From: Nemertoderma westbladi
Taxonomy: Eukaryota > Animalia > Xenacoelomorpha
Assembly: GCA_032718475.1 (NCBI GenBank)
Contig: JAUCBJ010009103.1
Location: forward strand, 248,001-312,000
Reading direction: 5' to 3'
DNA length: 64,000 bases
Part shown: positions 16,813 through 64,000 of the stretch, in pieces
How positions within the stretch are numbered: position 1 is the first letter of the stretch
Layout of the letters: each line of letters starts with the position of its first letter
Made by a program: the position numbers and the translations under genes
Notes under the pieces: model-generated
The model's database searches: none
What the model saw: the letters and a program-made list of their open reading frames with translations, nothing else
Told to the model about the DNA's origin: nothing

Positions 16813-17193
16813 ATGTCGTCCTCGTCAAGATTGAAGACTCGAGAACTTCGAGGAAAGAAGAAAGAGGAGCTAATGAAACAATTGGATGAGCAGAAGCAAG
16901 AGTTGTCGCAGTTACGGGTAGCCAAGGTAACGGGTGGGGCCGCCAGCAAACTCTCCAAGATCCGAGTAGTGCGTAAAAACATCGCGAGGATTTTCACAAT
17001 AGCTCACCAAACGCAGAAGGAGAATCTCCGACTCTACTACAAGAATAAGAAGTTTACCCCCAAAGATCTCCGTCCGAAGAAGACTCGAGCAATGCGGCGA
17101 GCGCTTACGAAACACGAGCTGAGTCTCCGAACTTGCAAACAACAGAGACACAGCGCCCAGACCAAGATGAGGAAGTTCGCGTTGAAGGAATAA
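16813..17193 (+). CDS. RPL35: 60S ribosomal protein L35 (uL29)
   Basis: 126 aa containing [57 protein letters not shown] and RKFALK. Intact and intronless; AATAAA at ~17300. Confidence 0.97.
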
Positions 17194-19296: not shown

Positions 19297-19440
19297 GGGA
19301 CGACTGGACGCAATAAAAATTCATCCCTCTCCAGGGAAAATTCGACGCAAATAACAGCTGATTATTCTCAAAAATAAAACTGTAACCTGTTCTATTGTAG
19401 ATAAGCTTTAAGCATTGTAAATAAGCTTTCTCTTAGTGCA

Positions 19441-21678: not shown

Positions 21679-21756
21679 CCGCTCCCAGAAAATGGGATTT
21701 AATTCTATAAAATATAAAAAATCACAGTTTCTAAAATATAAAAATACTCTAAACAG

Positions 21757-32468: not shown

Positions 32469-32650
32469 ATCAGTACACCAGTACATCAGTACACTCAACA
32501 GCCCAAAGTTCAGAAGTACAGTACTCTGGCAGTCTGGTACTGTCAGACTGTAGTCCAGTAGTCAGTCTGCAGTCTACAGGTCTAGTCAGTAGGCCTACTG
32601 CAGTACTGGTACCTACTGCAGTACTGACTGTAGATTTTGATATATTCTGA

Positions 32651-33030
32651 ATGGCTGCGTTAGTGAGCCTTCCGCGACAATCTATCTTCTTGGGATGCGG
32701 CCGTCGGCGACGGATTCCCGCACTTCCTCCGGCTCATAAACTCTCCACCGCTGCGGTAAGAGCCGCTGCTATACAGGAGGGCGATCTACGTAAAGGTCGC
32801 GAGATTATACATCATGAGTTCGATCCCCAAGAAGAGGCAGAGTTGGCGAAGTATTTCCCGAACGAGGCGGACTTGAAGAGACCGACTCTGCGGCAGTGGA
32901 TCCAGCATCCCATCGAGAGTTTTACCTCCATCTGCATGGACGTCGGTCCCCACATGGATAATCGATTCTCACATGTGTGGTACAATCTAACTTTGGATAA
33001 AATGCAAAACAGATGGGATTTCTGGACGAG
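32651..33030 (+). CDS. NDUFA10: NDUFA10 exon 1 (mitochondrial presequence plus N-terminal extension)
   Basis: Arg/Ala-rich, acid-free presequence. Donor AG|GTTGGA at 33031 is phase 2 and joins exon 2 in frame (WTR-MIVFDGNI). Confidence 0.75.
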
Positions 33031-35553: not shown

Positions 35554-35674
35554 GATGATTGTTTTTGATGGAAATATTGGCTGCGGTAAATCGACAATAG
35601 CGAAGGAAGTTGCCCAAAAGTACGGGTTGAAATACTACCCAGAGCCTGATCTCTACTACTGGGAAAGGAGGCAG
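35554..35674 (+). CDS. NDUFA10: NDUFA10 exon 2 (complex I 42-kDa subunit, dNK-fold P-loop)
   Basis: tttag|G acceptor. MIVFDGNIGCGKSTIAKEVAQKYGLKYYPEPDLYY resembles NDUFA10 VITVDGNI-x2-GK-x2-AKEIAEKLG-x-K-x-FPE. Donor CAG|GTTAGT at 35675. Remaining exons lie beyond the window. Confidence 0.85.
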
Positions 35675-38600
35675 GTTAGTTGGGCAAAAGTAGGGGTTGA
35701 AATACTACCCAGATCCAAATCTGTACTACTGGGAAAGGAGGCAGGTTAGTTGGGCAAAAGTAGGGGTTGAAATACTACCCAGATCCAAATCTGTACTACT
35801 GGGAAAGGAGGCAGGTTAGTTGGGCAAAAGTAGGGGTTGAAATACTACCCAGATCCAAATCTGTACTACTGGGAAAGGAGGCAGGTTAGTTGGGCAAAAG
35901 TAGGGGTTGAAATACTACCCAGATCCAGATCTGGGAAAGTTGGCAGGTTAGTTGGGCAAAAGTACGGGTTGAAATACTACCCAGATCCAAATCTGTACTA
36001 CTGGGAAAGGAGGCAGGTTAGTTGGGCAAAAGTAGGGGTTGAAATACTACCCAGATCCAAATCTGTGCTACTGGGAAAGGAGGCAGTTTAGTTGGGCAAA
36101 AGTAGGGGTTGAAATACTACTCAGATCCAAATCTGTACTACTGGGAAAGGAGGTAGGTTTGGCAAAAGTAAGGGTTGAAATACTACCCAGATCCAAATCT
36201 GTACTACTGGGAAAGGAGGCAGGTTAGTTGGGCAAAAGTAGGGGTTGAAATACTACCCAGATCCAAATCTGTACTACTGGGAAAGGAGGCAGGTTAGTTG
36301 GGCAAAAGTAGGGGTTGAAATACTACCCAGATCCAAATCTGTACTACTGGGAAAGGAGGCAGTTTAGTTGGGCAAAAGTAGGGGTTGAAATACTACCCAG
36401 ATCCAAATCTATACTACTGGGAAAGGAGGTAGGTTAGTTGGGCAAAAGTAGGGGTTGAAATACTACCCAGATCCTAATCTGTACTACTGGGAAAGGAGGC
36501 AGGTTAGTTGGGCAAAAGTAGGGGTTGAAATACTACCCAGATTCAAATCTGTACTACTGGGAAAGGAGGCAGGTTAGTTGGGCAAAAGTAGGGGTTGAAA
36601 TACTACCCAGATCCAGATCTGGGAAAGTTGGCAGGTTAGTTGGGCAAAAGTACGGGTTGAAATACTACCCAGATCCAAATCTGTACTACTGGGAAAGGAG
36701 GCAGCTTAGTTGGGCAAAAGTAGGGGTTGAAATACTACCCAGATCCAAATCTGTACTACTGGGAAAGGAGGCAGGTTAGTTGGGCAAAAGTAGGGGTTGA
36801 AATACTACCCAGATCCAGATCTGGGAAAGTTGGCAGGTTAGTTGGGCAAAAGTACGGGTTGAAATACTACCCAGATCCAAATCTGTACTACTGGGAAAGG
36901 AGGCACGTTAGTTGGGCAAAAGTAGGGGTTGAAATACTACCCAGATCCATATCTGTACTACTGGGAAAGGAGGTAGGTTAGTTGGGCAAAAGTAGGGGTT
37001 GAAATACTACCCAGATCCAAATCTGTACTACTGGGAAAGGAGGCAGGTTAGTTGGGCAAAAGTAGGGGTTGAAATACTACCCAGATCCAGATCTGGGAAA
37101 GTTGGCAGGTTAGTTGGGCAAAAGTACGGGTTGAAATACTACCCAGATCCAAATCTATACTACTGGGAAAGGAGGCAGGTTAGTTGGGCAAAAGTAGGGG
37201 TTGAAATACTACCCAGATCCAGATCTGGGAAAGTTGGCAGGTTAGTTGGGCAAAAGTACGGGTTGAAATACTACCCAGATCCAAATCTATACTACTGGGA
37301 AAGGAGGCACGTTAGTTGGGCAAAAGTAGGGGTTGAAATACTACCCAGATCCATATCTGTACTACTGGGAAAGGAGGTAGGTTAGTTGGGCAAAAGTACG
37401 GGTTGAAATACTACCCAGATCCAAATCTGTACTACTGGGAAAGGAGGCAGCTTAGTTGGGCAAAAGTAGGGGTTGAAATACTACCCAGATCCAAATCTGT
37501 ACTACTGGGAAAGGAGGCAGGTTAGTTGGGCAAAAGTAGGGGTTGAAATACTACCCAGATCCAGATCTGGGAAAGTTGGCAGGTTAGTTGGGCAAAAGTA
37601 CGGGTTGAAATACTACCCAGATCCAAATCTGTACTACTGGGAAAGGAGGCACGTTAGTTGGGCAAAAGTAGGGGTTGAAATACTACCCAGATCCATATCT
37701 GTACTACTGGGAAAGGAGGTAGGTTAGTTGGGCAAAAGTAGGGGTTGAAATACTACCCAGATCCAAATCTGTACTACTGAGAAAGGAGGCACGTTAGTTG
37801 GGCAAAAGTAGGGGTTGAAATACTACCCAGATCCATATCTGTACTACTGGGAAAGGAGCTAGGTTAGTTGGGCAAAAGTAGGGGTTGAAATACTACCCAG
37901 ACCCAGATCTGTACTACTGAGAAAGGAGGCACGTTAGTTGGGCAAAAGTAGGGGTTGAAATACTACCCAGATCCAAATCTGTACTACTGGGAAAGGAGGT
38001 AGGTTAGTTGGGCAAAAGTAGGGGTTGAAATACTACCCAGATCCAAATCTGTACTACTGAGAAAGGAGGCAGGTTAGTTGGGCAAAAGTACGGGTTGAAA
38101 TACTACCCAGATCCAAATCTATACTACTGGGAAAGGAAACAGGTTAGTTGGGCAAAAGTAGGGGTTGAAATACTACTCAGATCCAAATCTGTACTACTGG
38201 GAAAGGAGGCACGTTAGTTGGGCAAAAGTAGGGGTTGAAATACTACCCAGATCCAAATCTGTACTACTGGGAAAGGAGGTAGGTTAGTTGGGCAAAAGTA
38301 GGGGTTGAAATACTACCCAGATCCAAATCTGTACTACTGAGAAAGGAGGCAGGTTAGTTGGGCAAAAGTAGGGGTTGAAATACTACCCAGATCCAGATCT
38401 CTACTACTGGGAAAGGAGGCAGGTTAGTTGAGCAAAAGTAGGGGTTGAAATACTACCCAGATCCAAATCTGTGCTACCGGTACTGGGGAAGGAGGCAGGT
38501 TAGTTGGGCAAAAGTAGGGGTTGAAATACTACCCAGATCCAAATCTGTACTACTGAGAAAGGAGGCACGTTAGTTGGGCAAAAGTAGGGGTTGAAATACT

Positions 38601-41600
38601 ACCCAGATCCAAATCTGTACTACTGGGAAAGGAGGTAGGTTAGTTGGGCAAAAGTAGGGGTTGAAATACTACCCAGATCCAAATCTGTACTACTGAGAAA
38701 GGAGGCAGGTTAGTTGGGCAAAAGTACGGGTTGAAATACTACCCAGATCCAAATCTATACTACTGGGAAAGGAAACAGGTTAGTTGGGCAAAAGTAGGGG
38801 TTGAAATACTACTCAGATCCAAATCTGTACTACTGGGAAAGGAGGCACGTTAGTTGGGCAAAAGTAGGGGTTGAAATACTACCCAGATCCAAATCTGTAC
38901 TACTGGGAAAGGAGGTAGGTTAGTTGGGCAAAAGTAGGGGTTGAAATACTACCCAGATCCAAATCTGTACTACTGGGAAAGGAGGCACGTTAGTTGGGCA
39001 AAAGTAGGGGTTGAAATACTACCCAGATCCAAATCTGTACTACTGGGAAAGGAGGCACGTTAGTTGGGCAAAAGTAGGGGTTGAAATACTACCCAGATCC
39101 AAATCTGTACTACTGGGAAAGGAGGTAGGTTAGTTGGGCAAAAGTAGGGGTTGAAATACTACCCAGATCCAAATCTGTACTACTGAGAAAGGAGGCAGGT
39201 TAGTTGGGCAAAAGTAGGGGTTGAAATACTACCCAGATCCAGATCTCTACTACTGGGAAAGGAGGCAGGTTAGTTGAGCAAAAGTAGGGGTTGAAATACT
39301 ACCCAGATCCAAATCTGTGCTACCGGTACTGGGGAAGGAGGCAGGTTAGTTGGGCAAAAGTAGGGGTTGAAATACTACCCAGATCCAAATCTGTACTACT
39401 GAGAAAGGAGGCACGTTAGTTGGGCAAAAGTAGGGGTTGAAATACTACCCAGATCCAAATCTGTACTACTGGGAAAGGAGGTAGGTTAGTTGGGCAAAAG
39501 TAGGGGTTGAAATACTACCCAGATCCAAATCTGTACTACTGAGAAAGGAGGCAGGTTAGTTGGGCAAAAGTACGGGTTGAAATACTACCCAGATCCAAAT
39601 CTATACTACTGGGAAAGGAAACAGGTTAGTTGGGCAAAAGTAGGGGTTGAAATACTACTCAGATCCAAATCTGTACTACTGGGAAAGGAGGCACGTTAGT
39701 TGGGCAAAAGTAGGGGTTGAAATACTACCCAGATCCAAATCTGTACTACTGGGAAAGGAGGTAGGTTAGTTGGGCAAAAGTAGGGGTTGAAATACTACCC
39801 AGATCCAAATCTGTACTACTGGGAAAGGAGGCACGTTAGTTGGGCAAAAGTAGGGGTTGAAATACTACCCAGATCCAAATCTGTACTACTGGGAAAGGAG
39901 GTAGGTTAGTTGGGCAAAAGTAGGGGTTGAAATACTACCCAGATCCAAATCTGTACTACTGAGAAAGGAGGCAGGTTAGTTGGGCAAAAGTACGGGTTGA
40001 AATACTACCCAGATCCAAATCTATACTACTGGGAAAGGAAACAGGTTAGTTGGGCAAAAGTAGGGGTTGAAATACTACTCAGATCCAAATCTGTACTACT
40101 GGGAAAGGAGGCACGTTAGTTGGGCAAAAGTAGGGGTTGAAATACTACCCAGATCCAAATCTGTACTACTGGGAAAGGAGGTAGGTTAGTTGGGCAAAAG
40201 TAGGGGTTGAAATACTACCCAGATCCAAATCTGTACTACTGAGAAAGGAGGCAGGTTAGTTGGGCAAAAGTAGGGGTTGAAATACTACCCAGATCCAGAT
40301 CTCTACTACTGGGAAAGGAGGCAGGTTAGTTGGGCAAAAGTAGGGGTTGAAATACTACCCAGATCCAAATCTGTGCTACCGGTACTGGGAAAGGAGGCAG
40401 GTTAGTTGGGCAAAAGTAGGGGTTGAAATACTACCCAGATCCAGATCTGTACTAACTACTGGGAATGGAGGCAGGTTAGTTGGGCAAAAGTAGGGGTTGA
40501 AATACTACCCAGATCCTAATCTGTACTACTGGGAAAGGAGGCAGGTTAGTTGGGCAAAAGTTGGGGTTGAAATACTACCCAGATCCAAATCTGTGCTACT
40601 GGGAAAGGAGGCAGGTTAGTTGGGCAAAAGTAGGGGTTGAAATACTACCCAGATCCAGATCTGGGAAAGTTGGCAGGTTAGTTGGGCAAAAGTACGGGTT
40701 GAAATACTACCCAGATCCAAATCTGTACTACTGGGAAAGGAGGCACGTTAGTTGGGCAAAAGTAGGGGTTGAAATACTACCCAGATCCATATCTGTACTA
40801 CTGGGAAAGGAGGTAGGTTAGTTGGGCAAAAGTACGGGTTGAAATACTACCCAGATCCAAATCTGTACTACTGGGAAAGGAGGCAGCTTAGTTGGGCAAA
40901 AGTAGGGGTTGAAATACTACCCAGATCCAAATCTGTACTACTGGGAAAGGAGGCAGGTTAGTTGGGCAAAAGTAGGGGTTGAAATACTACCCAGATCCAG
41001 ATCTGGGAAAGTTGGCAGGTTAGTTGGGCAAAAGTACGGGTTGAAATACTACCCAGATCCAAATCTGTACTACTGGGAAAGGAGGCACGTTAGTTGGGCA
41101 AAAGTAGGGGTTGAAATACTACCCAGATCCATATCTGTACTACTGGGAAAGGAGGTAGGTTAGTTGGGCAAAAGTAGGGGTTGAAATACTACCCAGATCC
41201 AAATCTGTACTACTGAGAAAGGAGGCACGTTAGTTGGGCAAAAGTAGGGGTTGAAATACTACCCAGATCCATATCTGTACTACTGGGAAAGGAGCTAGGT
41301 TAGTTGGGCAAAAGTAGGGGTTGAAATACTACCCAGACCCAGATCTGTACTACTGAGAAAGGAGGCACGTTAGTTGGGCAAAAGTAGGGGTTGAAATACT
41401 ACCCAGATCCAAATCTGTACTACTGGGAAAGGAGGTAGGTTAGTTGGGCAAAAGTAGGGGTTGAAATACTACCCAGATCCAAATCTGTACTACTGAGAAA
41501 GGAGGCAGGTTAGTTGGGCAAAAGTACGGGTTGAAATACTACCCAGATCCAAATCTATACTACTGGGAAAGGAAACAGGTTAGTTGGGCAAAAGTAGGGG

Positions 41601-44600
41601 TTGAAATACTACTCAGATCCAAATCTGTACTACTGGGAAAGGAGGCACGTTAGTTGGGCAAAAGTAGGGGTTGAAATACTACCCAGATCCAAATCTGTAC
41701 TACTGGGAAAGGAGGTAGGTTAGTTGGGCAAAAGTAGGGGTTGAAATACTACCCAGATCCAAATCTGTACTACTGAGAAAGGAGGCAGGTTAGTTGGGCA
41801 AAAGTAGGGGTTGAAATACTACCCAGATCCAGATCTCTACTACTGGGAAAGGAGGCAGGTTAGTTGAGCAAAAGTAGGGGTTGAAATACTACCCAGATCC
41901 AAATCTGTGCTACCGGTACTGGGGAAGGAGGCAGGTTAGTTGGGCAAAAGTAGGGGTTGAAATACTACCCAGATCCAAATCTGTACTACTGAGAAAGGAG
42001 GCACGTTAGTTGGGCAAAAGTAGGGGTTGAAATACTACCCAGATCCAAATCTGTACTACTGGGAAAGGAGGTAGGTTAGTTGGGCAAAAGTAGGGGTTGA
42101 AATACTACCCAGATCCAAATCTGTACTACTGAGAAAGGAGGCAGGTTAGTTGGGCAAAAGTACGGGTTGAAATACTACCCAGATCCAAATCTATACTACT
42201 GGGAAAGGAAACAGGTTAGTTGGGCAAAAGTAGGGGTTGAAATACTACTCAGATCCAAATCTGTACTACTGGGAAAGGAGGCACGTTAGTTGGGCAAAAG
42301 TAGGGGTTGAAATACTACCCAGATCCAAATCTGTACTACTGGGAAAGGAGGTAGGTTAGTTGGGCAAAAGTAGGGGTTGAAATACTACCCAGATCCAAAT
42401 CTGTACTACTGGGAAAGGAGGCACGTTAGTTGGGCAAAAGTAGGGGTTGAAATACTACCCAGATCCAAATCTGTACTACTGGGAAAGGAGGCACGTTAGT
42501 TGGGCAAAAGTAGGGGTTGAAATACTACCCAGATCCAAATCTGTACTACTGGGAAAGGAGGTAGGTTAGTTGGGCAAAAGTAGGGGTTGAAATACTACCC
42601 AGATCCAAATCTGTACTACTGAGAAAGGAGGCAGGTTAGTTGGGCAAAAGTAGGGGTTGAAATACTACCCAGATCCAGATCTCTACTACTGGGAAAGGAG
42701 GCAGGTTAGTTGAGCAAAAGTAGGGGTTGAAATACTACCCAGATCCAAATCTGTGCTACCGGTACTGGGGAAGGAGGCAGGTTAGTTGGGCAAAAGTAGG
42801 GGTTGAAATACTACCCAGATCCAAATCTGTACTACTGAGAAAGGAGGCACGTTAGTTGGGCAAAAGTAGGGGTTGAAATACTACCCAGATCCAAATCTGT
42901 ACTACTGGGAAAGGAGGTAGGTTAGTTGGGCAAAAGTAGGGGTTGAAATACTACCCAGATCCAAATCTGTACTACTGAGAAAGGAGGCAGGTTAGTTGGG
43001 CAAAAGTACGGGTTGAAATACTACCCAGATCCAAATCTATACTACTGGGAAAGGAAACAGGTTAGTTGGGCAAAAGTAGGGGTTGAAATACTACTCAGAT
43101 CCAAATCTGTACAACTGGGAAAGGAGGCACGTTAGTTGGGCAAAAGTAGGGGTTGAAATACTACCCAGATCCAAATCTGTACTACTGGGAAAGGAGGTAG
43201 GTTAGTTGGGCAAAAGTAGGGGTTGAAATACTACCCAGATCCAAATCTGTACTACTGGGAAAGGAGGCACGTTAGTTGGGCAAAAGTAGGGGTTGAAATA
43301 CTACCCAGATCCAAATCTGTACTACTGGGAAAGGAGGTAGGTTAGTTGGGCAAAAGTAGGGGTTGAAATACTACCCAGATCCAAATCTGTACTACTGAGA
43401 AAGGAGGCAGGTTAGTTGGGCAAAAGTACGGGTTGAAATACTACCCAGATCCAAATCTATACTACTGGGAAAGGAAACAGGTTAGTTGGGCAAAAGTAGG
43501 GGTTGAAATACTACTCAGATCCAAATCTGTACTACTGGGAAAGGAGGCACGTTAGTTGGGCAAAAGTAGGGGTTGAAATACTACCCAGATCCAAATCTGT
43601 ACTACTGGGAAAGGAGGTAGGTTAGTTGGGCAAAAGTAGGGGTTGAAATACTACCCAGATCCAAATCTGTACTACTGGGAAAGGAGGCAGGTTAGTTGGG
43701 CAAAAGTAGGGGTTGAAATACTACCCAGATCCAAATCTGTACTACTGGGAAAGGAGGCACGTTAGTTGGGCAAAAGTAGGGGTTGAAATACTACCCAGAT
43801 CCAAATCTGTACTACTGGGAAAGGAGGTAGGTTAGTTGGGCAAAAGTAGGGGTTGAAATACTACCCAGATCCAAATCTGTACTACTGGGAAAGGAGGCAG
43901 GTTAGTTGGGCAAAAGTAGGGGTTGAAATACTACCCAGATCCAGATCTGTACTACTGGGAAAGGAGGCAGGTTAGTTGGGCAAAAGTAGGGGTTGAAATA
44001 CTACCCAGATCCAAATCTGTGCTACCGGTACTGGGGAAGGAGGCAGGTTAGTTGGGCAAAAGTAGGGGTTGAAATACTACCCAGATCCAAATCTGTACTA
44101 CTGAGAAAGGAGGCACGTTAGTTGGGCAAAAGTAGGGGTTGAAATACTACCCAGATCCAAATCTGTACTACTGGGAAAGGAGGTAGGTTAGTTGGGCAAA
44201 AGTAGGGGTTGAAATACTACCCAGATCCAAATCTGTACTACTGAGAAAGGAGGCAGGTTAGTTGGGCAAAAGTACGGGTTGAAATACTACCCAGATCCAA
44301 ATCTATACTACTGGGAAAGGAAACAGGTTAGTTGGGCAAAAGTAGGGGTTGAAATACTACTCAGATCCAAATCTGTACTACTGGGAAAGGAGGCACGTTA
44401 GTTGGGCAAAAGTAGGGGTTGAAATACTACCCAGATCCAAATCTGTACTACTGGGAAAGGAGGTAGGTTAGTTGGGCAAAAGTAGGGGTTGAAATACTAC
44501 CCAGATCCAAATCTGTACTACTGAGAAAGGAGGCAGGTTAGTTGGGCAAAAGTAGGGGTTGAAATACTACCCAGATCCAGATCTCTACTACTGGGAAAGG

Positions 44601-45250
44601 AGGCAGGTTAGTTGGGCAAAAGTAGGGGTTGAAATACTACCCAGATCCAAATCTGTGCTACTGGGAAAGGAGGTAGGTTAGTTGGGCAAAAGTAGGGGTT
44701 GAAATACTACCCAGATCCAAATCTGTACTACTGAGAAAGGAGGCAGGTTAGTTGGGCAAAAGTAGGGGTTGAAATACTACCCAGATCCAGATCTCTACTA
44801 CTGGGAAAGGAAACAGGTTAGTTGGGCAAAAGTAGGGGTTGAAATACTACTCAGATCCAAATCTGTACTACTGGGAAAGGAGGCACGTTAGTTGGGCAAA
44901 AGTAGGGGTTGAAATACTACCCAGATCCAAATCTGTACTACTGGGAAAGGAGGTAGGTTAGTTGGGCAAAAGTAGGGGTTGAAATACTACCCAGATCCAA
45001 ATCTGTACTACTGAGAAAGGAGGCAGGTTAGTTGGGCAAAAGTAGGGGTTGAAATACTACCCAGATCCAGATCTCTACTACTGGGAAAGGAGGCAGGTTA
45101 GTTGGGCAAAAGTAGGGGTTGAAATACTACCCAGATCCAAATCTGTGCTACCGGTACTGGGAAAGGAGGCAGGTTAGTTGGGCAAAAGTAGGGGTTGAAA
45201 TACTACCCAGATCCAGATCTGGGAAAGTTGGCAGGTTAGTTGGGCAAAAG
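35608..45250 (+). repeat. 70-bp exon-derived satellite, left block (~138 units)
   Basis: Unit AGTTGGGCAAAAGTAGGGGTTGAAATACTACCCAGATCCAAATCTGTACTACTGGGAAAGGAGGCAGGTT, with 62- and 76-bp variants. The first unit is the exon itself. Confidence 0.98.
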
Positions 45251-45797
45251 TGTTAGCTTATTCAATCCCGCTAACACCCCATAAAAGTTAAGCCGATAAG
45301 CAATATTGGGGGCCACGAGATTGGGTAATCACCAACTCGTGTCACCCCAATAAAATGGAAAGGAGAAACACAATGAGGGTCAGGGGCCAAACCCCTAACC
45401 CAGAGAGAACAGGTGGAGTGAACGGGAACACTCCAAAGGGCGCCAACAAGGGTATCAACCAATCAGAGGGGGGAAAGGCATCGATTAGGTAGAGTAACAA
45501 GGCCAACCCGTGCAATATAGCCAGTTGGCAGTAATCATTTCATTCAGTTATCTCAGTATCATATTGGTGCTAGTTAGGTTAGTTAGTTTAGCTAGGGAAG
45601 GACCGAGACTTTAATTACCGTATCCCGCCTTCCGTATACGACAACATTATCCATATCTATGCTTATATCTATATACCCGTACAACCGATTATTATATACG
45701 ACGAACGACACGAACTCTTTTTACCTTTCATACACACGGCGGGGACGCGTGAACTAAACAACCGGATAAACCGGGATCCTTCCTGGATCCCGTCACA
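45251..45797 (+). repeat. 5' LTR (547 bp)
   Basis: TGTTAGC...CGTCACA. Two substitutions noticed relative to the 3' LTR. Confidence 0.98.
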
Positions 45798-45895
45798 GTA
45801 ATTAAATCCGTCGGTGGCACAGTAATTAAAACTCAGAGCTGCCGCCCTAGCTAGCTAAACCCAGCGACTACCAGCCACCAATCGAACCAACCGAG

Positions 45896-48800: not shown

Positions 48801-49055
48801 ACTGAGAGAGGCAATGTAGGCGATAGGATAGCGCGGACAACAGGATTAAACCCGGAAGTCGCGGAATACATACCGGCGAGTAGGCCAGAAGCTGATAGGC
48901 CTATACCGGTACCAGCACAGCAGTATGACTACAGCATGCAGGGACATAACATATACCCAGGGGAGGGGGGAATTATTGCGGATAGGTGTATGGGCCCCAA
49001 TATATTAACATCAACCCCAGTACCAAACATACCGGTGGGGGGGGGGACAGGGTGA
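45896..49055 (+). CDS. Long N-terminal part of gag (disordered, coiled-coil, Asn-rich, internal repeats), frameshifted
   Basis: ORFs 45896..48700 and 48576..49055 overlap across G-runs. Features include a 120-bp duplication at ~46125-46325, an E/R coiled coil and GLVGHVVGRQG repeats. Confidence 0.75.
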
Positions 49056-54100: not shown

Positions 54101-54377
54101 GAGGAGGTGGGTCGAAGAATACCTGCCCACGCTCCATAAAAGAAGCAAGTGGAGGAAGCCGAATAGGGAGTTAAGAGAGGGAGATCTCGTAATCGTTACG
54201 GATGATACTATCATCAACAACCAATGGCGGTTGGCGAGAGTTGTAGGCACTTACTCCGACAAGGACGGAAGAGTCCGATCGGTAGAAGTGCGGATAGGTG
54301 GTAAGATAGGTGCGAAGGACAGAAAAACCTACAGGAGAGCTGTAGGGAAATGCTGTCTGTTAGAAGGGGCACCTTAG
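51100..54377 (+). CDS. BEL/Pao pol: reverse transcriptase, RNase H (Peptidase_A17-like), integrase, DUF5641-like tail
   Basis: YYLPLH, LRMVVDAS, CDIEGMF, FYVDDG, HMFSDAS, WTDSMV, ENPADLLSRG, H..HGG..CQTC, GVDMFGP, SDNGTNF, ERLV, NSRPL, LTPSHFL. Frame begins GRYTIGMVW upstream of the listed ATG. Confidence 0.97.
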
Positions 54378-54534
54378 TGGAGTTAGAGAAGAGTTTAGTC
54401 GTCCAAGCTTTGGACTGAGGGGGGTGGGATTGAGGGCGAGACGCCCTTCCCACACATAAAAAGTAAAATAAAAAATAAAAATAAAATAATAGTACATAGT
54501 AGGTATGCAGTTAGTAGGCAGAAGTTAGTCAGTA

Positions 54535-55062
54535 AGAAGGTACGTAGTACCTAGAGTTAGTTAGTTAAGAGGTACGTAGTACCTAGAGTTAGTTAGTTAA
54601 GAGGTACGTAGTACCTAGAGTTAGTTAGTTAAGAGGTACGTAGTACCTAGAGTTAGTTAGTTAAGAGGTACGTAGTACCTAGAGTTAGTTAGTTAAGAGG
54701 TACGTAGTACCTAGAGTTAGTTAGTTAGTTAGGAGGTACGTAGTACCGCTAGTTAGGAGAGAGTTAGAAGGTACGTAGTACCGTTAGTTAGAGAAGAGTT
54801 AGAGGGTACGTAGTACCGTTAGTTAGAGAGTTAGAGGGTACGTAGTACCGTTAGTTAGAGAAGAGTTAGAGGGTACGTAGTACCGTTAGTTAGAGAGTTA
54901 GAGGGTACGTAGTACCGTTAGTTAGAGAAGAGTTAGAGGGTACATAGTACCGTTAGTTAGAGAGTTAGAGGGTACGTAGTACCGCTAGTTAGAGAGTTAG
55001 AGGGTACGTAGTACCGTTAGTTAGAGAAGAGTTAGAGGGTACGTAGTACCGTTAGTTAGAGA
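54535..55062 (+). repeat. 32-37-bp tandem repeat between pol and ORF3
   Basis: About 15 copies of GAGGTACGTAGTACCTAGAGTTAGTTAGTTAA or GAGGGTACGTAGTACCGTTAGTTAGA(GAA)GAGTTA. Confidence 0.95.
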
Positions 55063-55567
55063 GAGAGAGAGTAAGAGGTAGAAGGGTATATAAGATATAG
55101 ATATTAGTTAGCAGTTAGTAGCGAGAGGGGGGCATATGAGTACAGTTGGGTAAATCGTGTGGCCACGCGACGCACACTGCTGTACTGCACAGGCCCACAG
55201 AGTAGGCCAGAATGTGGATTAGAGAATAGAATAATCCATAGGCAATAGTAAGTAGTAGGACAGTAGAATTAAAATTATACTAAAAATAAATAGATATATA
55301 AAAATAAATAGAATAGGGCTGAAAGTTACAAATTATGGCAACACTAGGAAAGTTATTCTGGAACATAATAAAAGTAACGGACAGAAATCGAAATTAGGGT
55401 GTATTTACTAGCTTCAGAATTAATTAGTAATAATTTAGGCTAAAAGGGCGCAGTTAAGTAAGGAATAGGCCATTATCGGACCGTACAGAACATCTTAAGA
55501 TACATCACTCATCTGTATTGCGCCTTGGTAAGGCACCACCTTACAGGTGAGCGAGTGAGTGTTCGGA

Positions 55568-58105
55568 ATGGCGAGCAAATTGATCAGAAAGAGAAAGGCG
55601 GAGTTAGGAGGAAAGGAGATACTGGTGGATTTCACCGAGAGGCATCCGGAAGAGAAGACGAGAGGATACTACGAGAGGTTGGAAAGGGGTCACGCGGCAC
55701 GAGCGCTGCAGGATCACTTCCGGGAGATGCACGAACAGCGGCTGGTCGGGACGCCGTCGCTGGACAACGCGATCTTCCAACACTTCCACTACGTGGTGAA
55801 AGGGGACGAGGCGAAGTTCGGGATTCGGAAGTACCCGAGGGAATCACCGAGGAAGGACTGGAAGAGATTCATAGAGTCCGTCAACAGGGGAGGATATATG
55901 ATCCTAGACGACGAGGGAACCGTGGAAGACGAGGCGGGTTCGAGACGAGGATCGGCGGGGTCGGCCAGGACCATACTCCTACATTTGGCCGCGCCAAATG
56001 GGGACATCTTCTTATTCGATCTAGGAACGTATGGGAAGAAGGACGGGCCGAAATTAAACCGGTTGCCGAAAGCGGTACAAGTCTTGGTAAGAGAGAAGTC
56101 GACGACGAAAGTAGGATCGGCGATTCGCGAGGATGCGGAGAGAATCATCGGTCCGGACGCCACCAACCTCCTGGATATGCAGAAGGTCTTTATGGCTATG
56201 ACGGCACCGGATGGGTTGGGGGTAGTCGAAAACACAGGCCAATGCGGGGCGGTGGCAATGGGCCAACTATTGGGGCTCGTGTGCCACAAACCGATGGACT
56301 GGGGGAAGTTCAGGGAAGAATACGGAGCAGAACTAGCGAACTCGCTAAAGTGGGGAGCGAGACCGGGAAAGCAAGAGGTATATCAATTCCGCAGAGGAGC
56401 GATAAAGGTATATCAGAAGCGATATATCCTGCAGGAAGACTGGATGATGATAAGTTTGCTTAACTTATTTATGACCGTGGTTATCGAGAGGGAACCAGCG
56501 GCATTTCTGTTATCGGGATCACCCCTAAGCTACAGGAGAGCCTTTAAAATGGCCTTCGACGGTCTGGTAGACCACCCGGGGCTGAAGGGCGAGTCGGTGT
56601 ACTACAACAGCCGACATCTGGAAGACGGGGAGACAGATACGCCGTATCAGAGATGGGAGCAGCTAGAAACGGATAGACGAGAAGCAAAGCGACTGGAAGA
56701 AGTCGCTAGACGGGAGAGGATAGAAGCAGAGGAGAGGGAGGAGGAGGCCAGGACGCAGAGTTACGGCTTCGAGGAACAGGCAGGCTTAGACGAACTTCAT
56801 TGGACTTCGTCAGGGAGTTCGGGGGAGTCTCTAGGGCGAGAACTGGGATGGACGGTGGGATCACCGAAACAGTCGACGTCGGGGTTGCAAGAGATGCCCA
56901 TACCAGCGGGCGCCGAAGGCGACCAACCGCCAAGGAAGTTAAGGGAACTAGAGGGATGGAGAGCTACGGGCGAGAGCCAAGGCGGGAAGGGACATAGTGG
57001 ATCCATCGGGATACCGGGGTTGGAGCCACTGCCAGAGGAGGAGGAGGACGACGACGAGTTCGGAGGGGTGCCGCCCATCGAGAGGATTGGCCACTCGGAC
57101 ACGGACTGGGTTGGCGGGAGGGTGGTGACGGCCAGTGGGGCGAGGGCCTTCTGGAACAGATCCGGCAAGCAGACCTGGGTGCACGAGGAGCCGGCGATGG
57201 ATTTCGCGGGGAGCACTATCAGGTTGGGCGAGCAACCGGGGACGGCACCACGGATAGTATTCGGGGAGACGATGCCCGAGAGGGGCGGAGAGATCGACGT
57301 AGACAGGGACACCAACGTGGAGAAGTTCGCCTACCAGCGACTCCACAGACCGCGGAGATCGCTTGGGACGAAAGACGACGTGGGGCGGGAGACATTGGTA
57401 CTCGGTTGCGACTACTGTGGGAGACAGACCCACCAGGAAAGGAGCTGCTTGTACCGGTTCCAAAAGGGAACCTTTTGTCTCTACTGCCGAGAGCCGAGCC
57501 ACAGGATGGGGGCGTGTCCACGGTTGCATAACCGATGTCCAAAGTGCAACTTTCGGGGACACTACGGACGCCAGTGCGACTGGATGGACGACGAAGAGAA
57601 GTTCAGAAGATTCGAGGAGTGGGCCGACGTCGGGGCCATGACGCGCCAGCGCATGAAGGCCCAGGAGTTTAAGTGGGGTTTCTTCCTTATCAATCAGGAG
57701 GCTCACATGGAAATCATAAAGCGGAGGCTACCGTTTACCTATCAAGAGGTAGCAACGGCGGCGTCGTATGCCGGAGTGATGAACACACAAAGATATTTGG
57801 ACAGGTGGACGCCACAGAACCGAGGGGAGTTTAGGGATTTCTTGGCGGAGCACGTGCCGCGAGCAATGAAGATGATCCTATGGGACGCCACCAGATGGAG
57901 ACAACAGGGCCACTCTGAGGGGCCACTGGCGAAGCGATATCGGGCACTAATAACACCAGCGCCCAAGGAGCCAACAACCGGAATCAGCAGGGAGGTGGCG
58001 GCGAAAGTCCGAAAGCAGAAAGCGGATCCCAGAGGAGCGGTGGTAACCAAGAAACGACCCAGGGAAGAGGACGCCAGGGGGAACTATCCCCAGAGGAACA
58101 GATAG
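55568..58105 (+). CDS. Accessory ORF3: DEDDy 3'-5' exonuclease domain plus three CCHC zinc knuckles
   Basis: Intact ~845 aa from the ATG at 55568. ExoI ILDDEG, LLHLAAPNGDIFLFDL, LPKAVQVLVREKSTTKVGSAIRED (ExoII), LLDMQ and ExoIII-like QKRYILQED. Zinc knuckles CDYCGRQTHQERSC, CLYCREPSHRMGAC and CPKCNFRGHYGRQC. Confidence 0.85.
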   Translation: MASKLIRKRKAELGGKEILVDFTERHPEEKTRGYYERLERGHAARALQDHFREMHEQRLVGTPSLDNAIFQHFHYVVKGDEAKFGIRKYPRESPRKDWKRFIESVNRGGYMILDDEGTVEDEAGSRRGSAGSARTILLHLAAPNGDIFLFDLGTYGKKDGPKLNRLPKAVQVLVREKSTTKVGSAIREDAERIIGPDATNLLDMQKVFMAMTAPDGLGVVENTGQCGAVAMGQLLGLVCHKPMDWGKFREEYGAELANSLKWGARPGKQEVYQFRRGAIKVYQKRYILQEDWMMISLLNLFMTVVIEREPAAFLLSGSPLSYRRAFKMAFDGLVDHPGLKGESVYYNSRHLEDGETDTPYQRWEQLETDRREAKRLEEVARRERIEAEEREEEARTQSYGFEEQAGLDELHWTSSGSSGESLGRELGWTVGSPKQSTSGLQEMPIPAGAEGDQPPRKLRELEGWRATGESQGGKGHSGSIGIPGLEPLPEEEEDDDEFGGVPPIERIGHSDTDWVGGRVVTASGARAFWNRSGKQTWVHEEPAMDFAGSTIRLGEQPGTAPRIVFGETMPERGGEIDVDRDTNVEKFAYQRLHRPRRSLGTKDDVGRETLVLGCDYCGRQTHQERSCLYRFQKGTFCLYCREPSHRMGACPRLHNRCPKCNFRGHYGRQCDWMDDEEKFRRFEEWADVGAMTRQRMKAQEFKWGFFLINQEAHMEIIKRRLPFTYQEVATAASYAGVMNTQRYLDRWTPQNRGEFRDFLAEHVPRAMKMILWDATRWRQQGHSEGPLAKRYRALITPAPKEPTTGISREVAAKVRKQKADPRGAVVTKKRPREEDARGNYPQRNR

Positions 58106-58813
58106 GTTCCCAGGGCCGGGGGAGAGAAACTGAGACTTGGACGTGGTACGCCTGGAAGGCGCCGCGTGGGACGTACGAACTATTAAGTACAAATTAAGCT
58201 GATGCAAATAATTAAATAAGTGCAATTATATGTACGTACGTAGTGATCAGTAGTTTAGCAATAAAATATACGTTCGGAGTAAGTACTATAGTCATACAAC
58301 CTTTCTCAATTAGCTACTGGGACTGGGGGGATAACTGACTATGGCACTATGGACGAGACACCAGACGATTTCACACTTCTTGAGTGCGACGGCACAAGAG
58401 GGGGGGGGGGGAGATTCGTCAGAAGGGATGAGGTAGTCGAAGTGGGGTTGAGGGACGGAGTAATAGTGCGAAGTGCGGAGAGAGTGCGGACGCAATTCTA
58501 GTGTGGGGGGGGGGGGGAGAATAAGAGGCTGAGTGAGGGACGAGGAGGTCCGAGGGTATGAGAGAGTTAGGGTGAGAGTGGAGAAGAGATAGGGCGAAAG
58601 TGTTGGGGAAACAAAAGTCGCGTGAGAGGTGAGCGCGATCGGCCCGACATGGGACGCCAGGCATACAGGGTAGCGTTATCATACCCATAGGGAGCGGCCT
58701 GGAAAGCCGGCTCCGAGAGAAAATAATTCCACCCCACACCCGATACTAGATCGGGATCCAGCGGGATTGTAGCGCACTTAAGGTGGATGCTATCTTCTCA
58801 CCGGGAAGATAGC

Positions 58814-58824
58814 ATGGGGGGGAG
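58814..58824 (+). promoter_or_regulatory. Polypurine tract
   Basis: ATGGGGGGGAG directly abutting the 3' LTR. Confidence 0.85.
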
Positions 58825-59371
58825 TGTTAGCTTATTCAATCCCGCTAACACCCCATAAAAGTTAAGCCGATAAGCAATATTGGGGGCCACGAGATTGGGT
58901 AATCACCAACTCGTGTCACCCCAATAAAATGGAAAGGAGAAACACAATGAGGGTCAGGGGCCAAACCCCTAACCCAGAGAGAACAGGTGGAGTGAACGGG
59001 AACACTCCAAAGGGCGCCAACAAGGGTATCAACCAATCAGAGGGGGGAAAGGCATCGATTAGGTAGAGTCACAAGGCCAACCCGTGCAATATAGCCAGTT
59101 GGCAGTAATCATTTCATTCAGTTATCTCAGTATCATATTGGTGCTAGTTAGGTTAGTTAGTTTAGCTAGGGAAGGACCGGGACTTTAATTACCGTATCCC
59201 GCCTTCCGTATACGACAACATTATCCATATCTATGCTTATATCTATATACCCGTACAACCGATTATTATATACGACGAACGACACGAACTCTTTTTACCT
59301 TTCATACACACGGCGGGGACGCGTGAACTAAACAACCGGATAAACCGGGATCCTTCCTGGATCCCGTCACA
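58825..59371 (+). repeat. 3' LTR (547 bp)
   Basis: Near-identical to 45251-45797. Confidence 0.98.
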
Positions 59372-62300
59372 AAAAGTACGGGTTGAAATACTACCCAGAT
59401 CCAAATCTGTACTACTGAGAAAGGAGGCAGGTTAGTTGGGCAAAAGTAGGGGTTGAAATACTACCCAGATCCAGATCTGGGAAAGTTGGCAGGTTAGTTG
59501 GGCAAAAGTACGGGTTGAAATACTACCCAGATCCAAATCTGTACTACTGGGAAAGGAGGCAGGTTAGTTGGGCAAAAGTAGGGGTTGAAATACAACCCAG
59601 ATCCAAATCTGTGCTACTGGGAAAGGAGGCAGGTTAGTTGGGCAAAAGTAGGGGTTGAAATACTACCCAGATCCAAATCTGTACTACTGGGAAAGGAGGC
59701 AGGTTAGTTGGGCAAAAGTAGGGGTTGAAATACTACCCAGATCCAAATCTGTACTACTGGGAAAGGAGGCAGGTTAGTTGGGCAAAAGTAGGGGTTGAAA
59801 TACTACCCAGATTCAAATCTGTACTACTGGGAAAGGAGGCAGGTTAGTTGGGCAAAAGTAGGGGTTGAAATACTACCCAGATCCAGATCTGGGAAAGTTG
59901 GCAGGTTAGTTGGGCAAAAGTACGGGTTGAAATACTACCCAGATCCAAATCTGTACTACTGGGAAAGGAGGCAGCTTAGTTGGGCAAAAGTAGGGATTGA
60001 AATACTACTCAGATCCAAATCTGTACTACTGGGAAAGGAGTCACGTTAGTTGGGCAAAAGTAGGGGTTGAAATGCTACCCAGATCCATATCTGTACTACT
60101 GGGGAAGGAGGCAGGTTAGATGGGCAAAAGTAGGGGTTGAAATACTACCCAGATCCAAATCTGTACTACTGAGAAAGGAGGCACGTTAGTTGGGCAAAAG
60201 TAGGGGTTGAAATACTACCCAGATCCAAATCTGTACTACTGGGAAAGGAGGTAGGTTGTTGGGCAAAAGTAGGGGTTGAAATACTACCCAGATCCAAATC
60301 TGTACTACTGAGAAAGGAGGCAGGTTAGTTGGGCAAAAGTAGGGGTTGAAATACTACCCAGATCCAGATCTCTACTACTGGGAAAGGAGGCAGGTTAGTT
60401 GGGCAAAAGTAGGGGTTGAAATACTACCCAGATCCAAATCTGTACTACTGGGAAAGGAGGCAGGTTAGTTGGGCAAAAGTAGGGGTTGAAATACTACCCA
60501 GATCCAGATCTGGGAAAGTTGGCAGGTTAGTTGGGCAAAAGTACGGGTTGAAATACTACCCAGATCCAAATCTGTACTACTGGGAAAGGAGGCAGGTTGG
60601 TTGGGCAAAAGTAGGGGTTGAAATACAACCCAGATCCAAATCTGTGCTACTGGGAAAGGAGGCAGGTTAGTTGGGCAAAAGTAGGGGTTGAAATACTACC
60701 CAGATCCAAATCTGTACTACTGGGAAAGGAGGCAGGTTAGTTGGGCAAAAGTAGGGGTTGAAATACTACCCAGATCCAAATCTGTGCTACTGGGAAAGGA
60801 GGCAGGTTAGTTGGGCAAAAGTAGGGGTTGAAATACTATCCAGATCTGGGAAAGTTGGCAGGTTAGTTGGGCAAAAGTACGGGTTGAAATACTACCCAGA
60901 TCCAAATCTGTACTACTGGGAAAGGAGGCAGGTTAGTTGGGCAAAAGTTGGGGTTGAAATACTACCCAGATCCACATCTGTGCTACTGGGAAAGGAGGCA
61001 GGTTAGTTGGGCAAAAGTAGGGGTTGAAATACTACCCAGATCCAGATCTGGGAAAGTTGGCAGGTTAGTTGGGCAAAAGTACGGGTTGAAATACTACCCA
61101 GATCCAAATCTGTACTACTGGGAAAGGAGGCAGGTTAGTTGGGCAAAAGTAGGGGTTGAACTACTACCCAGATCCAGATCTGTACTAACTACTGGGAATG
61201 GAGGCAGGTTAGTTGGGCAAAAGTAGGGGTTGAAATACTACCCAGATCCTAATCTGTACTACTGGGAAAAGAGGCAGGTTAGTTGGGTAAAAGTAGGGGT
61301 TGAAATACTACCCAGACCCAAATCTGTACTACTGGGAAAGGAGGCAGGTTTGTTGGGCAAAAGTAGGGGTTGAAATACTACCCAGATCCAAATCTGTACT
61401 ACTGGGAAAGGAGGCAGGTTAGTTGGGTAAAAGTAGGGGTTGAAATACTACCCAGATCCAAATCTGTACTACTGGGAAAGGAGGCAGGTTAGTTGGGCAA
61501 AAGTAGGGGTTGAAATGCTACCCAGACCAAGATCTGTACTACTGGGAAAGGAGGCAGCTTTGGCAAAAGTAGGGGTTGAAATGCTACCCAGATCCAGATC
61601 TGTACTACTGGGAAATACAAATAAGGCAGGTTAGTTGGGCAAAAGTAGGGGTTGAAATACTACCCAGATCCAGATCTCTACTACTGGGAAAGGAGGCAGG
61701 TTAGTTGGGCAAAAGTAGGGGTTGAAATACTACCCAGATCCAAATCTGTACTACTGGGAAAGGAGGCAGGTTAGTTGGGCAAAAGTAGGGGTTGAAATAC
61801 TACCCAGATCCAGATCTGGGAAAGTTGGCAGGTTAGTTGGGCAAAAGTACGGGTTGAAATACTACCCAGATCCAAATCTGTACTACTGGGAAAGGAGGCA
61901 GGTTGGTTGGGCAAAAGTAGGGGTTGAAATACAACCCAGATCCAAATCTGTGCTACTGGGAAAGGAGGCAGGTTAGTTGGGCAAAAGTAGGGGTTGAAAT
62001 ACTACCCAGATCCAAATCTGTACTACTGGGAAAGGAGGCAGGTTAGTTGGGCAAAAGTAGGGGTTGAAATACTACCCAGATCCAAATCTGTGCTACTGGG
62101 AAAGGAGGCAGGTTAGTTGGGCAAAAGTAGGGGTTGAAATACTACCCAGATCCAGATCTGGGAAAGTTGGCAGGTTAGTTGGGCAAAAGTACGGGTTGAA
62201 ATACTACCCAGATCCAAATCTGTACTACTGGGAAAGGAGGCAGGTTAGTTGGGCAAAAGTTGGGGTTGAAATACTACCCAGATCCACATCTGTGCTACTG

Positions 62301-64000
62301 GGAAAGGAGGCAGGTTAGTTGGGCAAAAGTAGGGGTTGAAATACTACCCAGATCCAGATCTGGGAAAGTTGGCAGGTTAGTTGGGCAAAAGTACGGGTTG
62401 AAATACTACCCAGATCCAAATCTGTACTACTGGGAAAGGAGGCAGGTTAGTTGGGCAAAAGTAGGGGTTGAAATACTACCCAGATCCAGATCTGTACTAA
62501 CTACTGGGAATGGAGGCAGGTTAGTTGGGCAAAAGTAGGGGTTGAAATACTACCCAGATCCTAATCTGTACTACTGGGAAAAGAGGCAGGTTAGTTGGGT
62601 AAAAGTAGGGGTTGAAATACTACCCAGACCCAAATCTGTACTACTGGGAAAGGAGGCAGGTTTGTTGGGCAAAAGTAGGGGTTGAAATACTACCCAGATC
62701 CAAATCTGTACTACTGGGAAAGGAGGCAGGTTAGTTGGGTAAAAGTAGGGGTTGAAATACTACCCAGATCCAAATCTGTACTACTGGGAAAGGAGGCAGG
62801 TTAGTTGGGCAAAAGTAGGGGTTGAAATGCTACCCAGACCAAGATCTGTACTACTGGGAAAGGAGGCAGCTTTGGCAAAAGTAGGGGTTGAAATGCTACC
62901 CAGATCCAGATCTGTACTACTGGGAAAGGAGGCAGGTTAGTTGGGCAAAAGTAGGGGTTGAAATACTACCCAGATCCAGATCTGGGAAAGTTGGCAGGTT
63001 AGTTGGGCAAAAGTACGGGTTGAAATACTACCCAGATCCAAATCTGTACTACTGGGAAAGGAGGCAGGTTGGTTGGGCAAAAGTAGGGGTTGAAATACAA
63101 CCCAGATCCAAATCTGTGCTACTGGGAAAGGAGGCAGGTTAGTTGGGCAAAAGTAGGGGTTGAAATACTACCCAGATCCAAATCTGTACTACTGGGAAAG
63201 GAGGCAGGTTAGTTGGGCAAAAGTAGGGGTTGAAATACTACCCAGATCCAAATCTGTGCTACTGGGAAAGGAGGCAGGTTAGTTGGGCAAAAGTAGGGGT
63301 TGAAATACTACCCAGATCCAGATCTGGGAAAGTTGGCAGGTTAGTTGGGCAAAAGTACGGGTTGAAATACTACCCAGATCCAAATCTGTACTACTGGGAA
63401 AGGAGGCAGGTTAGTTGGGCAAAAGTTGGGGTTGAAATACTACCCAGATCCACATCTGTGCTACTGGGAAAGGAGGCAGGTTAGTTGGGCAAAAGTAGGG
63501 GTTGAAATACTACCCAGATCCAGATCTGGGAAAGTTGGCAGGTTAGTTGGGCAAAAGTACGGGTTGAAATACTACCCAGATCCAAATCTGTACTACTGGG
63601 AAAGGAGGCAGGTTAGTTGGGCAAAAGTAGGGGTTGAAATACTACCCAGATCCAGATCTGTACTAACTACTGGGAATGGAGGCAGGTTAGTTGGGCAAAA
63701 GTAGGGGTTGAAATACTACCCAGATCCTAATCTGTACTACTGGGAAAAGAGGCAGGTTAGTTGGGTAAAAGTAGGGGTTGAAATACTACCCAGACCCAAA
63801 TCTGTACTACTGGGAAAGGAGGCAGGTTTGTTGGGCAAAAGTAGGGGTTGAAATACTACCCAGATCCAAATCTGTACTACTGGGAAAGGAGGCAGGTTAG
63901 TTGGGTAAAAGTAGGGGTTGAAATACTACCCAGATCCAAATCTGTACTACTGGGAAAGGAGGCAGGTTAGTTGGGCAAAAGTAGGGGTTGAAATGCTACC
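59372..64000 (+). repeat. 70-bp exon-derived satellite, right block (~66 units, runs off the window)
   Basis: Same unit resumes exactly after the TSD (AAAAG-TACGGGTTG). Higher-order periods of 1166 and 1312 bp. Confidence 0.98.

What the first reader, a model, noticed from the sequence alone, without database searches (positions are those of the whole stretch)
35554..64000. NDUFA10 exon end and splice donor amplified into a >14-kb satellite
Seen: the 70-bp unit is the last ~67 nt of exon 2 (AQKYGLKYYPEPDLYYWERRQ) plus the start of the donor. The junction uses the microhomology AGTTG (exonic GAAGTTG versus intronic TTAGTTG). About 200 copies follow, many with an intact CAG|GTTAGT. The unit length is not a multiple of 3 and most copies change TAC to TAG, so using a later donor would frameshift or stop. 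Known: tandem duplication of an exonic AG|GT segment is a proposed route to intron gain, and AG|GT sites also define recursive splicing points. Inference: either an existing intron filled with decoy donors in a core respiratory gene, or an intron born by tandem duplication with the first GT as donor and the last AG as acceptor.
Basis: partly seen in the sequence, partly recalled or inferred. Interest (0 to 1): 0.82.

Follow-up and report, generated by a model that had tools for sequence, protein, structure and literature searches.

The report
Splice-donor satellite swelling an NDUFA10 intron
In a gene for a mitochondrial complex I subunit, the end of one exon and its splice signal are copied about 200 times into the next intron and split by a retrotransposon, yet the one spliced transcript seen leaves at the first signal, so this is likely a tolerated, very large example of a repeat type already known from lancelets and human genes.

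Summary
The unit is 62 nt of NDUFA10 exon 2 plus 8 nt of intron, joined at a 5-bp microhomology. A transcript-like contig from another sample splices exon 1 to exon 2 and leaves at the first donor; no array contig appears in that run. A DNA contig leaves the array exactly at the unit boundary into sequence that is not the next exon. So the intron predates the array and precise intron birth is refuted. The repeated AG|GT sites lack a pyrimidine tract, so recursive splicing is unlikely. This is an exon-junction minisatellite of the human F7 / amphioxus 'mirage' kind, only larger. The scan has noted this kind on other DNA several times. Splicing of this expanded allele itself is untested.

The parts
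32651..33030 (+). NDUFA10-like gene, first coding exon (ATG at 32651; 126 codons plus 2 nt; Arg-rich N-terminus that looks like a mitochondrial targeting peptide, by eye only)
   Evidence: contigs of run X4 cover 32558-33028 and join to exon 2
33031..35553 (+). Intron 1, 2,523 nt, GT..AG, phase 2, with a T-rich acceptor
   Evidence: joint 33028-35552 (cut +2) in run X4, depth 4163.6
35554..35674 (+). Exon 2, 121 nt, P-loop region of NDUFA10
35608..35612 (+). Exonic copy of the 5-bp microhomology AGTTG (left edge of the duplicated unit)
   Evidence: the entry contig aligns from this motif
35613..35682 (+). Template of the 70-bp unit: last 62 nt of exon 2 plus first 8 nt of intron 2
35675..35682 (+). 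Authentic donor of intron 2 (CAG|GTTAGT), ending in the intronic AGTTG
   Evidence: the spliced contig leaves the window here
35683..45250 (+). Left satellite block, about 137 copies, with nested higher-order repeats (exact 2,387-nt run at lag 3,436)
35747..35749 (+). First in-frame stop on read-through (TAG within the second donor)
45246..45250 (+). Left target-site duplication AAAAG (right copy at 59372-59376)
45251..59371 (+). Bel/Pao LTR retrotransposon, 14,121 bp, in the same orientation as the gene, inserted into one repeat unit
   Evidence: DUF1759, aspartyl protease, RVT_1, Peptidase_A17, Integrase_H2C2, rve and DUF5641; LTRs and target duplication
45251..45797 (+). 5' LTR, 547 bp, TG..CA
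55559..58105 (+). Extra 848-aa open frame of the element between pol and the 3' LTR; weak zinc-knuckle matches; function not established
   Evidence: no Pfam family for the whole frame
58825..59371 (+). 3' LTR, 547 bp, 2 differences from the 5' LTR
59372..64000 (+). Right satellite block, 68 anchors, higher-order period about 1.2-1.3 kb, runs off the window

Best explanation
This is an exon-junction minisatellite: 62 nt of NDUFA10 exon 2 plus the first 8 nt of an intron that likely already existed are repeated about 200 times head to tail inside that intron, and the spliced transcript seen leaves at the first donor. Inferred history: a slip or repair event between the two AGTTG motifs 70 bp apart made the first duplicate. 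That copy drifted (about 11% from the exon), then unequal exchange of multi-unit blocks amplified it (copies about 4% apart). A Bel/Pao element then inserted into one unit (LTRs 0.4% apart). Inferred mechanism of tolerance: the donor nearest the exon's acceptor is chosen first, as shown experimentally for human F7. The spare donors have no usable acceptor in front of them, so they cannot define new exons or ratchet points. Any slip to a later donor gives a frameshift or a stop at 35747 and would likely be removed by nonsense-mediated decay. The array is most likely neutral cargo, not a device.
For: Shown. (1) One contig of run X4 (638 nt, depth 4163.6) joins exon 1 to exon 2 and leaves at 35675 into non-array sequence. 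(2) The depth of that run in bin 35664-35760 (515.1) equals what the contig's 12 overlapping letters give alone (515.08), so no array contig was laid from it. (3) Run X1 shows one entry (exon 2) and one exit, directly after GTTAGTTG, into at least 255 nt that do not match the transcript's continuation. A 16-letter piece of the exit is absent from the window. (4) The array adjoins exon 2 in a second sample too (X2 contig 34948-35683, X3 contig 35649-35745; 28 array contigs in X3). (5) No copy of the unit lies in the window outside the two blocks. (6) Pyrimidine fraction before the repeated AG is 0.28, and only 3 of 153 AG sites in intron 1 are that low. (7) Two alleles seen in exon 2 in run X2 (35563, 35584) are at third codon positions and silent by my reading. 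Literature: F7, CBS, LMNB2, PDGF and 6-16 repeats of this build, with first-donor use in F7, LMNB2 and PDGF (PMC1557585, abstract and passages); amphioxus 'mirages' that do not disturb regular splicing (PMC3087553, passages).
Against: Run X4 is recorded as 'DNA?'. I read it as RNA because it bridges a GT..AG intron and has no cover over most unique intron bins. It is a different sample from X1 and X2/X3, so its own array length and LTR status are unknown; it shares three 5' indels with the X2/X3 haplotype, which carries the array. Contigs drop rare isoforms, and in CBS and 6-16 the next donors are used at some level. The exit contig could be the array's 3' end or an array-free allele; both mean an older intron, but I saw only 30 letters of it. 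The LTR junctions did not appear as loose ends, so the tool can miss exits and 'single locus' is not proven. Orthologue intron position could not be tested.
Confidence: 0.85

Rival explanations
1. Same origin, but the expanded allele is not neutral: array length and the sense-oriented LTR element change NDUFA10 output through leakage to later donors followed by decay, or through early polyadenylation in the element.
For: 124 of 205 junctions read CAG|GTTAGT, identical to the real donor, and 188 keep GTTAGT. The element carries 13 AATAAA hexamers and 10 AG sites as pyrimidine-rich as the real acceptor, on the gene's strand. Summed array depth relative to single-copy depth is about 8 times higher in X1 than in X3, a hint of length differences between samples. 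In CBS a second donor is used, and a cited title links repeat number to enzyme activity (PMC1557585, passage and reference title).
Against: No array contig in the transcript-like run. X1 shows a single unbranched contig over exon 1 at depth 28.3 and no second near-identical copy, which suggests its carrier lives with this haplotype. The depth ratio is not a copy number: my simulation changed about 17-fold with the unknown length cut-off.
Confidence: 0.08
2. Intron 2 was born by tandem duplication, either precisely (first GT as donor, last repeat AG as acceptor) or imprecisely with a latent acceptor further on.
For: Each unit holds AG|GT, the motif of the tandem-duplication model (PMC3443670, passages). 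Mirages were proposed as a route to intron gain (PMC3087553). The intron start and the next exon's start share a GTTG motif.
Against: The precise model needs the mRNA to read GTTAG after CAG; it reads G then GTTGG. It needs the array to end at an AG followed by coding sequence; the exit comes 8 nt after the AG, into AT-rich sequence unlike the next exon. The repeated AG has no pyrimidine tract.
Confidence: 0.04
3. The repeated AG|GT sites are recursive (ratchet) splice points that remove the 28-kb-plus intron in steps.
For: 157 downstream AG|GT junctions were scored in a long intron.
Against: Real recursive sites are enriched for T and C in the 20 nt upstream (PMC8797253, passage); here that stretch is purine-rich (mean 0.28, maximum 0.37). 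A ratchet every 70 nt has no evident use (inference).
Confidence: 0.02
4. The array is an assembly artefact, or the locus is a dead copy.
For: Array length cannot be read from contigs, and no long reads were available.
Against: 50 distinct unit sequences with nested higher-order order. Variant units are present as contigs in two samples. A 4-nt insertion variant occurs 4 times in the window and has contig depth 227.8 in X1 against 27-28 for single-copy DNA, about 8 copies. The exons are spliced in frame at high depth.
Confidence: 0.01

Closest known systems
Human F7 intron 7 37-bp VNTR, with the CBS intron 13, LMNB2, PDGF intron 4 and 6-16 repeats listed beside it (PMC1557585; abstract and passages)
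   Same: The first unit spans the exon-intron boundary, the donor is repeated down the intron, and the most upstream donor is used.
   Different: Those have 5-9 (F7) up to about 25 copies. Here there are about 205 in the window alone, the unit is 89% exonic, there are nested higher-order repeats, and a 14-kb retrotransposon sits inside. The scanning mechanism was shown in mammalian cells, not in this organism.
Amphioxus 'mirage' minisatellites (Adh3, globins BflGb6 and BflGb9; PMC3087553, passages)
   Same: Tandem copies of an exon-intron boundary with AG/GT signals, turnover by unequal exchange, regular splicing kept.
   Different: BflGb6 has 3-6 units of 150-160 bp; this array is far longer. 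Somatic instability, reported for Adh3, was not testable here.
[quoted passage not shown]
   Same: Tandem duplication of a segment that holds AGGT.
   Different: The unit includes intron bases that are absent from the mRNA, and the array ends in unique non-coding sequence, so no new intron is created.
Recursive splice sites (PMC8797253, passages)
   Same: AG|GT inside a long intron.
   Different: No pyrimidine tract, 70-nt spacing, no intermediates seen or testable.

Membership tests
Exon-junction minisatellite (F7 type / mirage) | First unit spans an exon-intron boundary | tested here: met
   Unit = 62 exon nt + 8 intron nt; boundary fixed by the spliced contig
Exon-junction minisatellite (F7 type / mirage) | Donor sequence repeated in the following intron | tested here: met
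   124 of 205 junctions read CAG|GTTAGT; 188 keep GTTAGT
Exon-junction minisatellite (F7 type / mirage) | Most upstream donor carries the main transcript | tested here: met
   One contig, one run, another sample; minor isoforms are not visible in contigs
Exon-junction minisatellite (F7 type / mirage) | Array lies within an older intron and ends in ordinary intron sequence | tested here: met
   Exit at the unit boundary into at least 255 nt of non-array sequence, 30 letters seen
Exon-junction minisatellite (F7 type / mirage) | Copy number varies between alleles | tested here: inconclusive
   About 8-fold depth difference between X1 and X3, but the measure could not be calibrated
[quoted passage not shown] | Duplicated segment is wholly exonic, so the mRNA continues as the repeat does after AG | tested here: not met
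   The transcript continues differently from GTTAG
[quoted passage not shown] | Last repeat AG is the acceptor, followed by coding sequence | tested here: not met
[quoted passage not shown] | Intron absent at this position in orthologues | not testable with these tools
   No genome for this window; no related locus found
Recursive splice sites | AG|GT motif in a long intron | tested here: met
Recursive splice sites | Pyrimidine tract upstream of the AG | tested here: not met
   0.28 against 0.68 at the real acceptor and 0.50 for intron-1 AG sites
Recursive splice sites | Junction or lariat intermediates in nascent RNA | not testable with these tools
   Only contigs were served
NDUFA10 | dNK-fold P-loop region closer to NDUFA10 than to deoxynucleoside kinases | tested here: met
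   rests on 40 residues. Exon 1 found no relative
Bel/Pao LTR retrotransposon | DUF1759 gag, protease-RT-Peptidase_A17-integrase-DUF5641, paired TG..CA LTRs, short target duplication (feature list recalled) | tested here: met

The most novel reading that the evidence does not exclude
The donor array shields the gene: about 190 U1-binding donor motifs on both sides of a sense-oriented retrotransposon with 13 AATAAA signals suppress early polyadenylation (U1 telescripting, recalled, not from a call). Array length would then set how much full-length complex I subunit mRNA is made and explain why a 14-kb insertion is tolerated in a core respiratory gene.
Probability: 0.05. Interest if true: 0.65.

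Novelty: new member of a known kind. Interest (0 to 1): 0.24.

Why it matters
As it stands it is a large, well-resolved example of a published oddity. It suggests that first-donor choice can hold against a long run of identical competitors in a highly expressed gene, and it records four steps in order: microhomology duplication, drift, block amplification, retrotransposon insertion. It is not a case of intron birth. If long and short alleles are confirmed, it would be a natural test of donor choice and of early polyadenylation in a non-mammalian animal.

Tried and rejected
No whole genome is held, so exon 3 and the array's far end could not be read directly. Word-index protein searches with exon 2 and exon 1 found nothing, and a PDB search with the end of exon 1 gave one irrelevant hit. 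The metagenome scan gave 1 locus from 388 candidate stretches; L001 is 65% GC with a stop inside the matched frame and was rejected as chance. The protein atlas gave no answer. No RNA holder was listed by record; X4 was recognised as transcript-like only after laying it. Copy number from summed contig depth: my simulation gave 0.2 to 3.5 million depth-letters depending on the unknown length cut-off, against 1.3 million observed, so no estimate is made. Extra ORF of the element as a DEDDy exonuclease (motifs recalled, by eye): no Pfam or PDB match for that region and a single-sequence model at pLDDT 34, so no fold search was run and the idea stays untested. Five of the seven main exon-versus-array differences fall at third codon positions; too few to interpret. 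Paper searches with no result. No earlier notes exist for this genome. I make no claim that this locus is absent from print; I did not search for it by organism. Supplements were not read.
Full report
Observation. Tandem Repeats Finder gives a 70-bp array at 35608-45221 and again from 59372 to the window end. A unit-by-unit count finds 206 anchors, 138 left (the exon's own included) and 68 right, none between. 169 of 204 intervals are 70 nt, and there are 50 distinct unit sequences. Satellite DNA totals 9,638 + 4,629 bp, and intron 2 is at least 28,326 nt. The unit has no other match in the window.

The gap is a retrotransposon. 45251-59371 has two 547-bp TG..CA LTRs that differ at 2 positions and is flanked by a 5-bp duplication AAAAG inside one unit. 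Its frames match DUF1759, aspartyl protease, RVT_1, Peptidase_A17, Integrase_H2C2, rve and DUF5641, the Bel/Pao set (recalled). The protease and RT parts lie in two overlapping frames (49009-51126 and 51000-54377); I did not resolve whether that is programmed. The element lies in the gene's orientation and carries 13 AATAAA hexamers; the satellite has none.

The gene. The 40 codons at 35555-35674 hit NDUFA10 first in PDB (11 best sequences, E 1.6e-7 to 8.5e-6). An HMMER search of 1.84 billion proteins gave 9 hits, of which P0005 (61% identity) and P0007 are named NDUFA10 by their sources; four others are repeat or AAA proteins with several matched stretches, one is an unnamed dNK-domain fragment and two were not examined. 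The first coding exon starts at 32651. Exon 1 itself found no relative, so the name rests on exon 2.

Splicing. Of 6 runs listed, none is on record as RNA; I laid 4. X4 behaves as a transcriptome: a 638-nt contig at depth 4163.6 joins 33028 to 35552 across a GT..AG intron of 2,523 nt, and most unique intron bins have little or no depth. The same contig leaves the window at 35675 into sequence that is not the array. Read in frame it continues G-W-K (my reading), matching G-D-K at that place in P0007. X4's depth in the bin that overlaps the first repeat (515.1) is exactly what this contig's 12 letters give (515.08). So the main transcript of that sample uses the first donor. X4 is another sample, and contigs hide rare forms.

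Where the array ends. Laying X1 and X3 on a 110-nt probe of the unit gave 46 and 28 contigs. X1, which matches the window without a difference over 1,391 and 1,848 nt, shows two loose ends: the entry from exon 2, aligned from the AGTTG motif, and one exit directly after GTTAGTTG into at least 255 nt of other sequence. The 30 letters shown are AT-rich and unlike the transcript's continuation, and a 16-letter piece of them is absent from the window. The exit falls at the very boundary that a duplication between the two AGTTG motifs predicts. X3 shows the entry but no exit, and the LTR junctions were not reported, so the tool misses some exits.

Intron birth and recursive splicing. The precise tandem-duplication model (PMC3443670, passages) needs an exonic unit and coding sequence after the last AG; both fail. 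Recursive sites are enriched for upstream pyrimidines (PMC8797253, passages). The 157 downstream AG|GT junctions scored average 0.28 (maximum 0.37), against 0.68 at the real acceptor and 0.50 for 153 AG sites in intron 1, of which 3 are as low. Orthologue intron position could not be tested.

Cost of a wrong donor. 124 of 205 junctions read CAG|GTTAGT, 33 CAC|, 31 TAG|, and 17 are otherwise changed. Donor 2 adds 70 nt and shifts the frame; donors 3 to 6 include the stop at 35747-35749, as any later one must. Decay of such forms is inferred.

History. The microhomology is 5 bp in register. Among 153 full-length copies that could be phased, the mean distance to the exon is 11% (minimum 5 of 70) and copies differ by about 4% within and between blocks; the LTRs differ by 0.37%. 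An exact 2,387-nt run at lag 3,436 on the left and a 1,091-nt run at lag 1,166 on the right show block duplication. The order duplication, drift, amplification, insertion is inferred from these distances. Amplification may have continued after the insertion, since the blocks share only 8 unit types (34 left, 24 right).

Reality and size. The array adjoins exon 2 in a second sample (X2 and X3). A 4-nt insertion variant occurs 4 times in the window and has depth 227.8 in X1 against 27-28 for single-copy DNA, which suggests more copies beyond the window. Summed depth is about 8 times higher in X1 than in X3 after scaling, but simulation showed that this measure cannot be calibrated, so it is a hint only.

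What is known. Minisatellites whose first unit spans an exon-intron boundary are described for human F7, CBS, LMNB2, PDGF and 6-16; F7 constructs showed that the most upstream working donor is chosen (PMC1557585, abstract and passages). Amphioxus 'mirages' have the same build and leave splicing intact (PMC3087553, passages). Related passages were seen in PMC2812944 and bioRxiv 10.1101/2021.07.19.452908. I found the F7 paper by my own search; the mirage lead came from earlier scan notes, several of which describe this kind in other genomes, one with about 377 copies (unchecked).

Verdict. A real, large member of a known kind, most likely neutral (0.85). Precise intron birth is refuted and recursive splicing is unlikely. 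What remains open is whether this expanded, retrotransposon-bearing allele is spliced as cleanly as the sample seen. Interest 0.24.

Noticed in passing
window 55559-58105 (+): The Bel/Pao element has an extra 848-aa ORF between pol and the 3' LTR, with weak CCHC-knuckle matches. By eye its N-terminal part resembles a DEDDy 3'-5' exonuclease (motifs recalled), but Pfam, PDB and a pLDDT-34 model gave no support. DEDDy ORF3s are known in rotifer LTR elements; that paper's text has no whole-word 'BEL' or 'Pao' (PMC5408684, passages).
   Followed up: partly
beyond the window; exit contig of run X1 at unit position 35752: The 30 letters shown after the array end in CAG. If the next exon began there, the intron before expansion would have been only 38 nt; more likely this is just the display limit. 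Not testable with the calls left.
   Followed up: no
window 45851-48700 (+): A 949-aa low-complexity ORF opens the element, upstream of the DUF1759 frame; no Pfam match.
   Followed up: partly
window 54531-55067: A 32/67-bp tandem array inside the element, between pol and the extra ORF.
   Followed up: no
window 16777-17193 (+): An uninterrupted ribosomal protein uL29 (RpL35) frame, E 6.3e-18; true gene or retrocopy not determined.
   Followed up: partly
window 3998-5035 (-): A 345-aa frame with DUF4817 helix-turn-helix and DDE_3 matches, likely a Tc1/mariner-type transposase.
   Followed up: no
window 19405-20472 (+): A LINE-like endonuclease remnant in two consecutive frames; weak Exo_endo_phos match.
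   Followed up: no
window about 20460-21710, 26190-26770 and 30200-30750: By eye, pieces of one element recur: 20460-21070 resembles 26190-26770 and 21080-21710 resembles 30200-30750, as if a copy were split by later insertions. Not aligned.
   Followed up: no
window 33031-33036: The intron 1 donor GAG|GTTGGA matches 5 of 9 consensus positions, against 8 of 9 for the amplified intron 2 donor, yet it is used in the spliced contig.
   Followed up: no
window 12380-12723: A 22/30/52-bp nested repeat between apparent long inverted arms, MITE-like or palindromic by eye.
   Followed up: no
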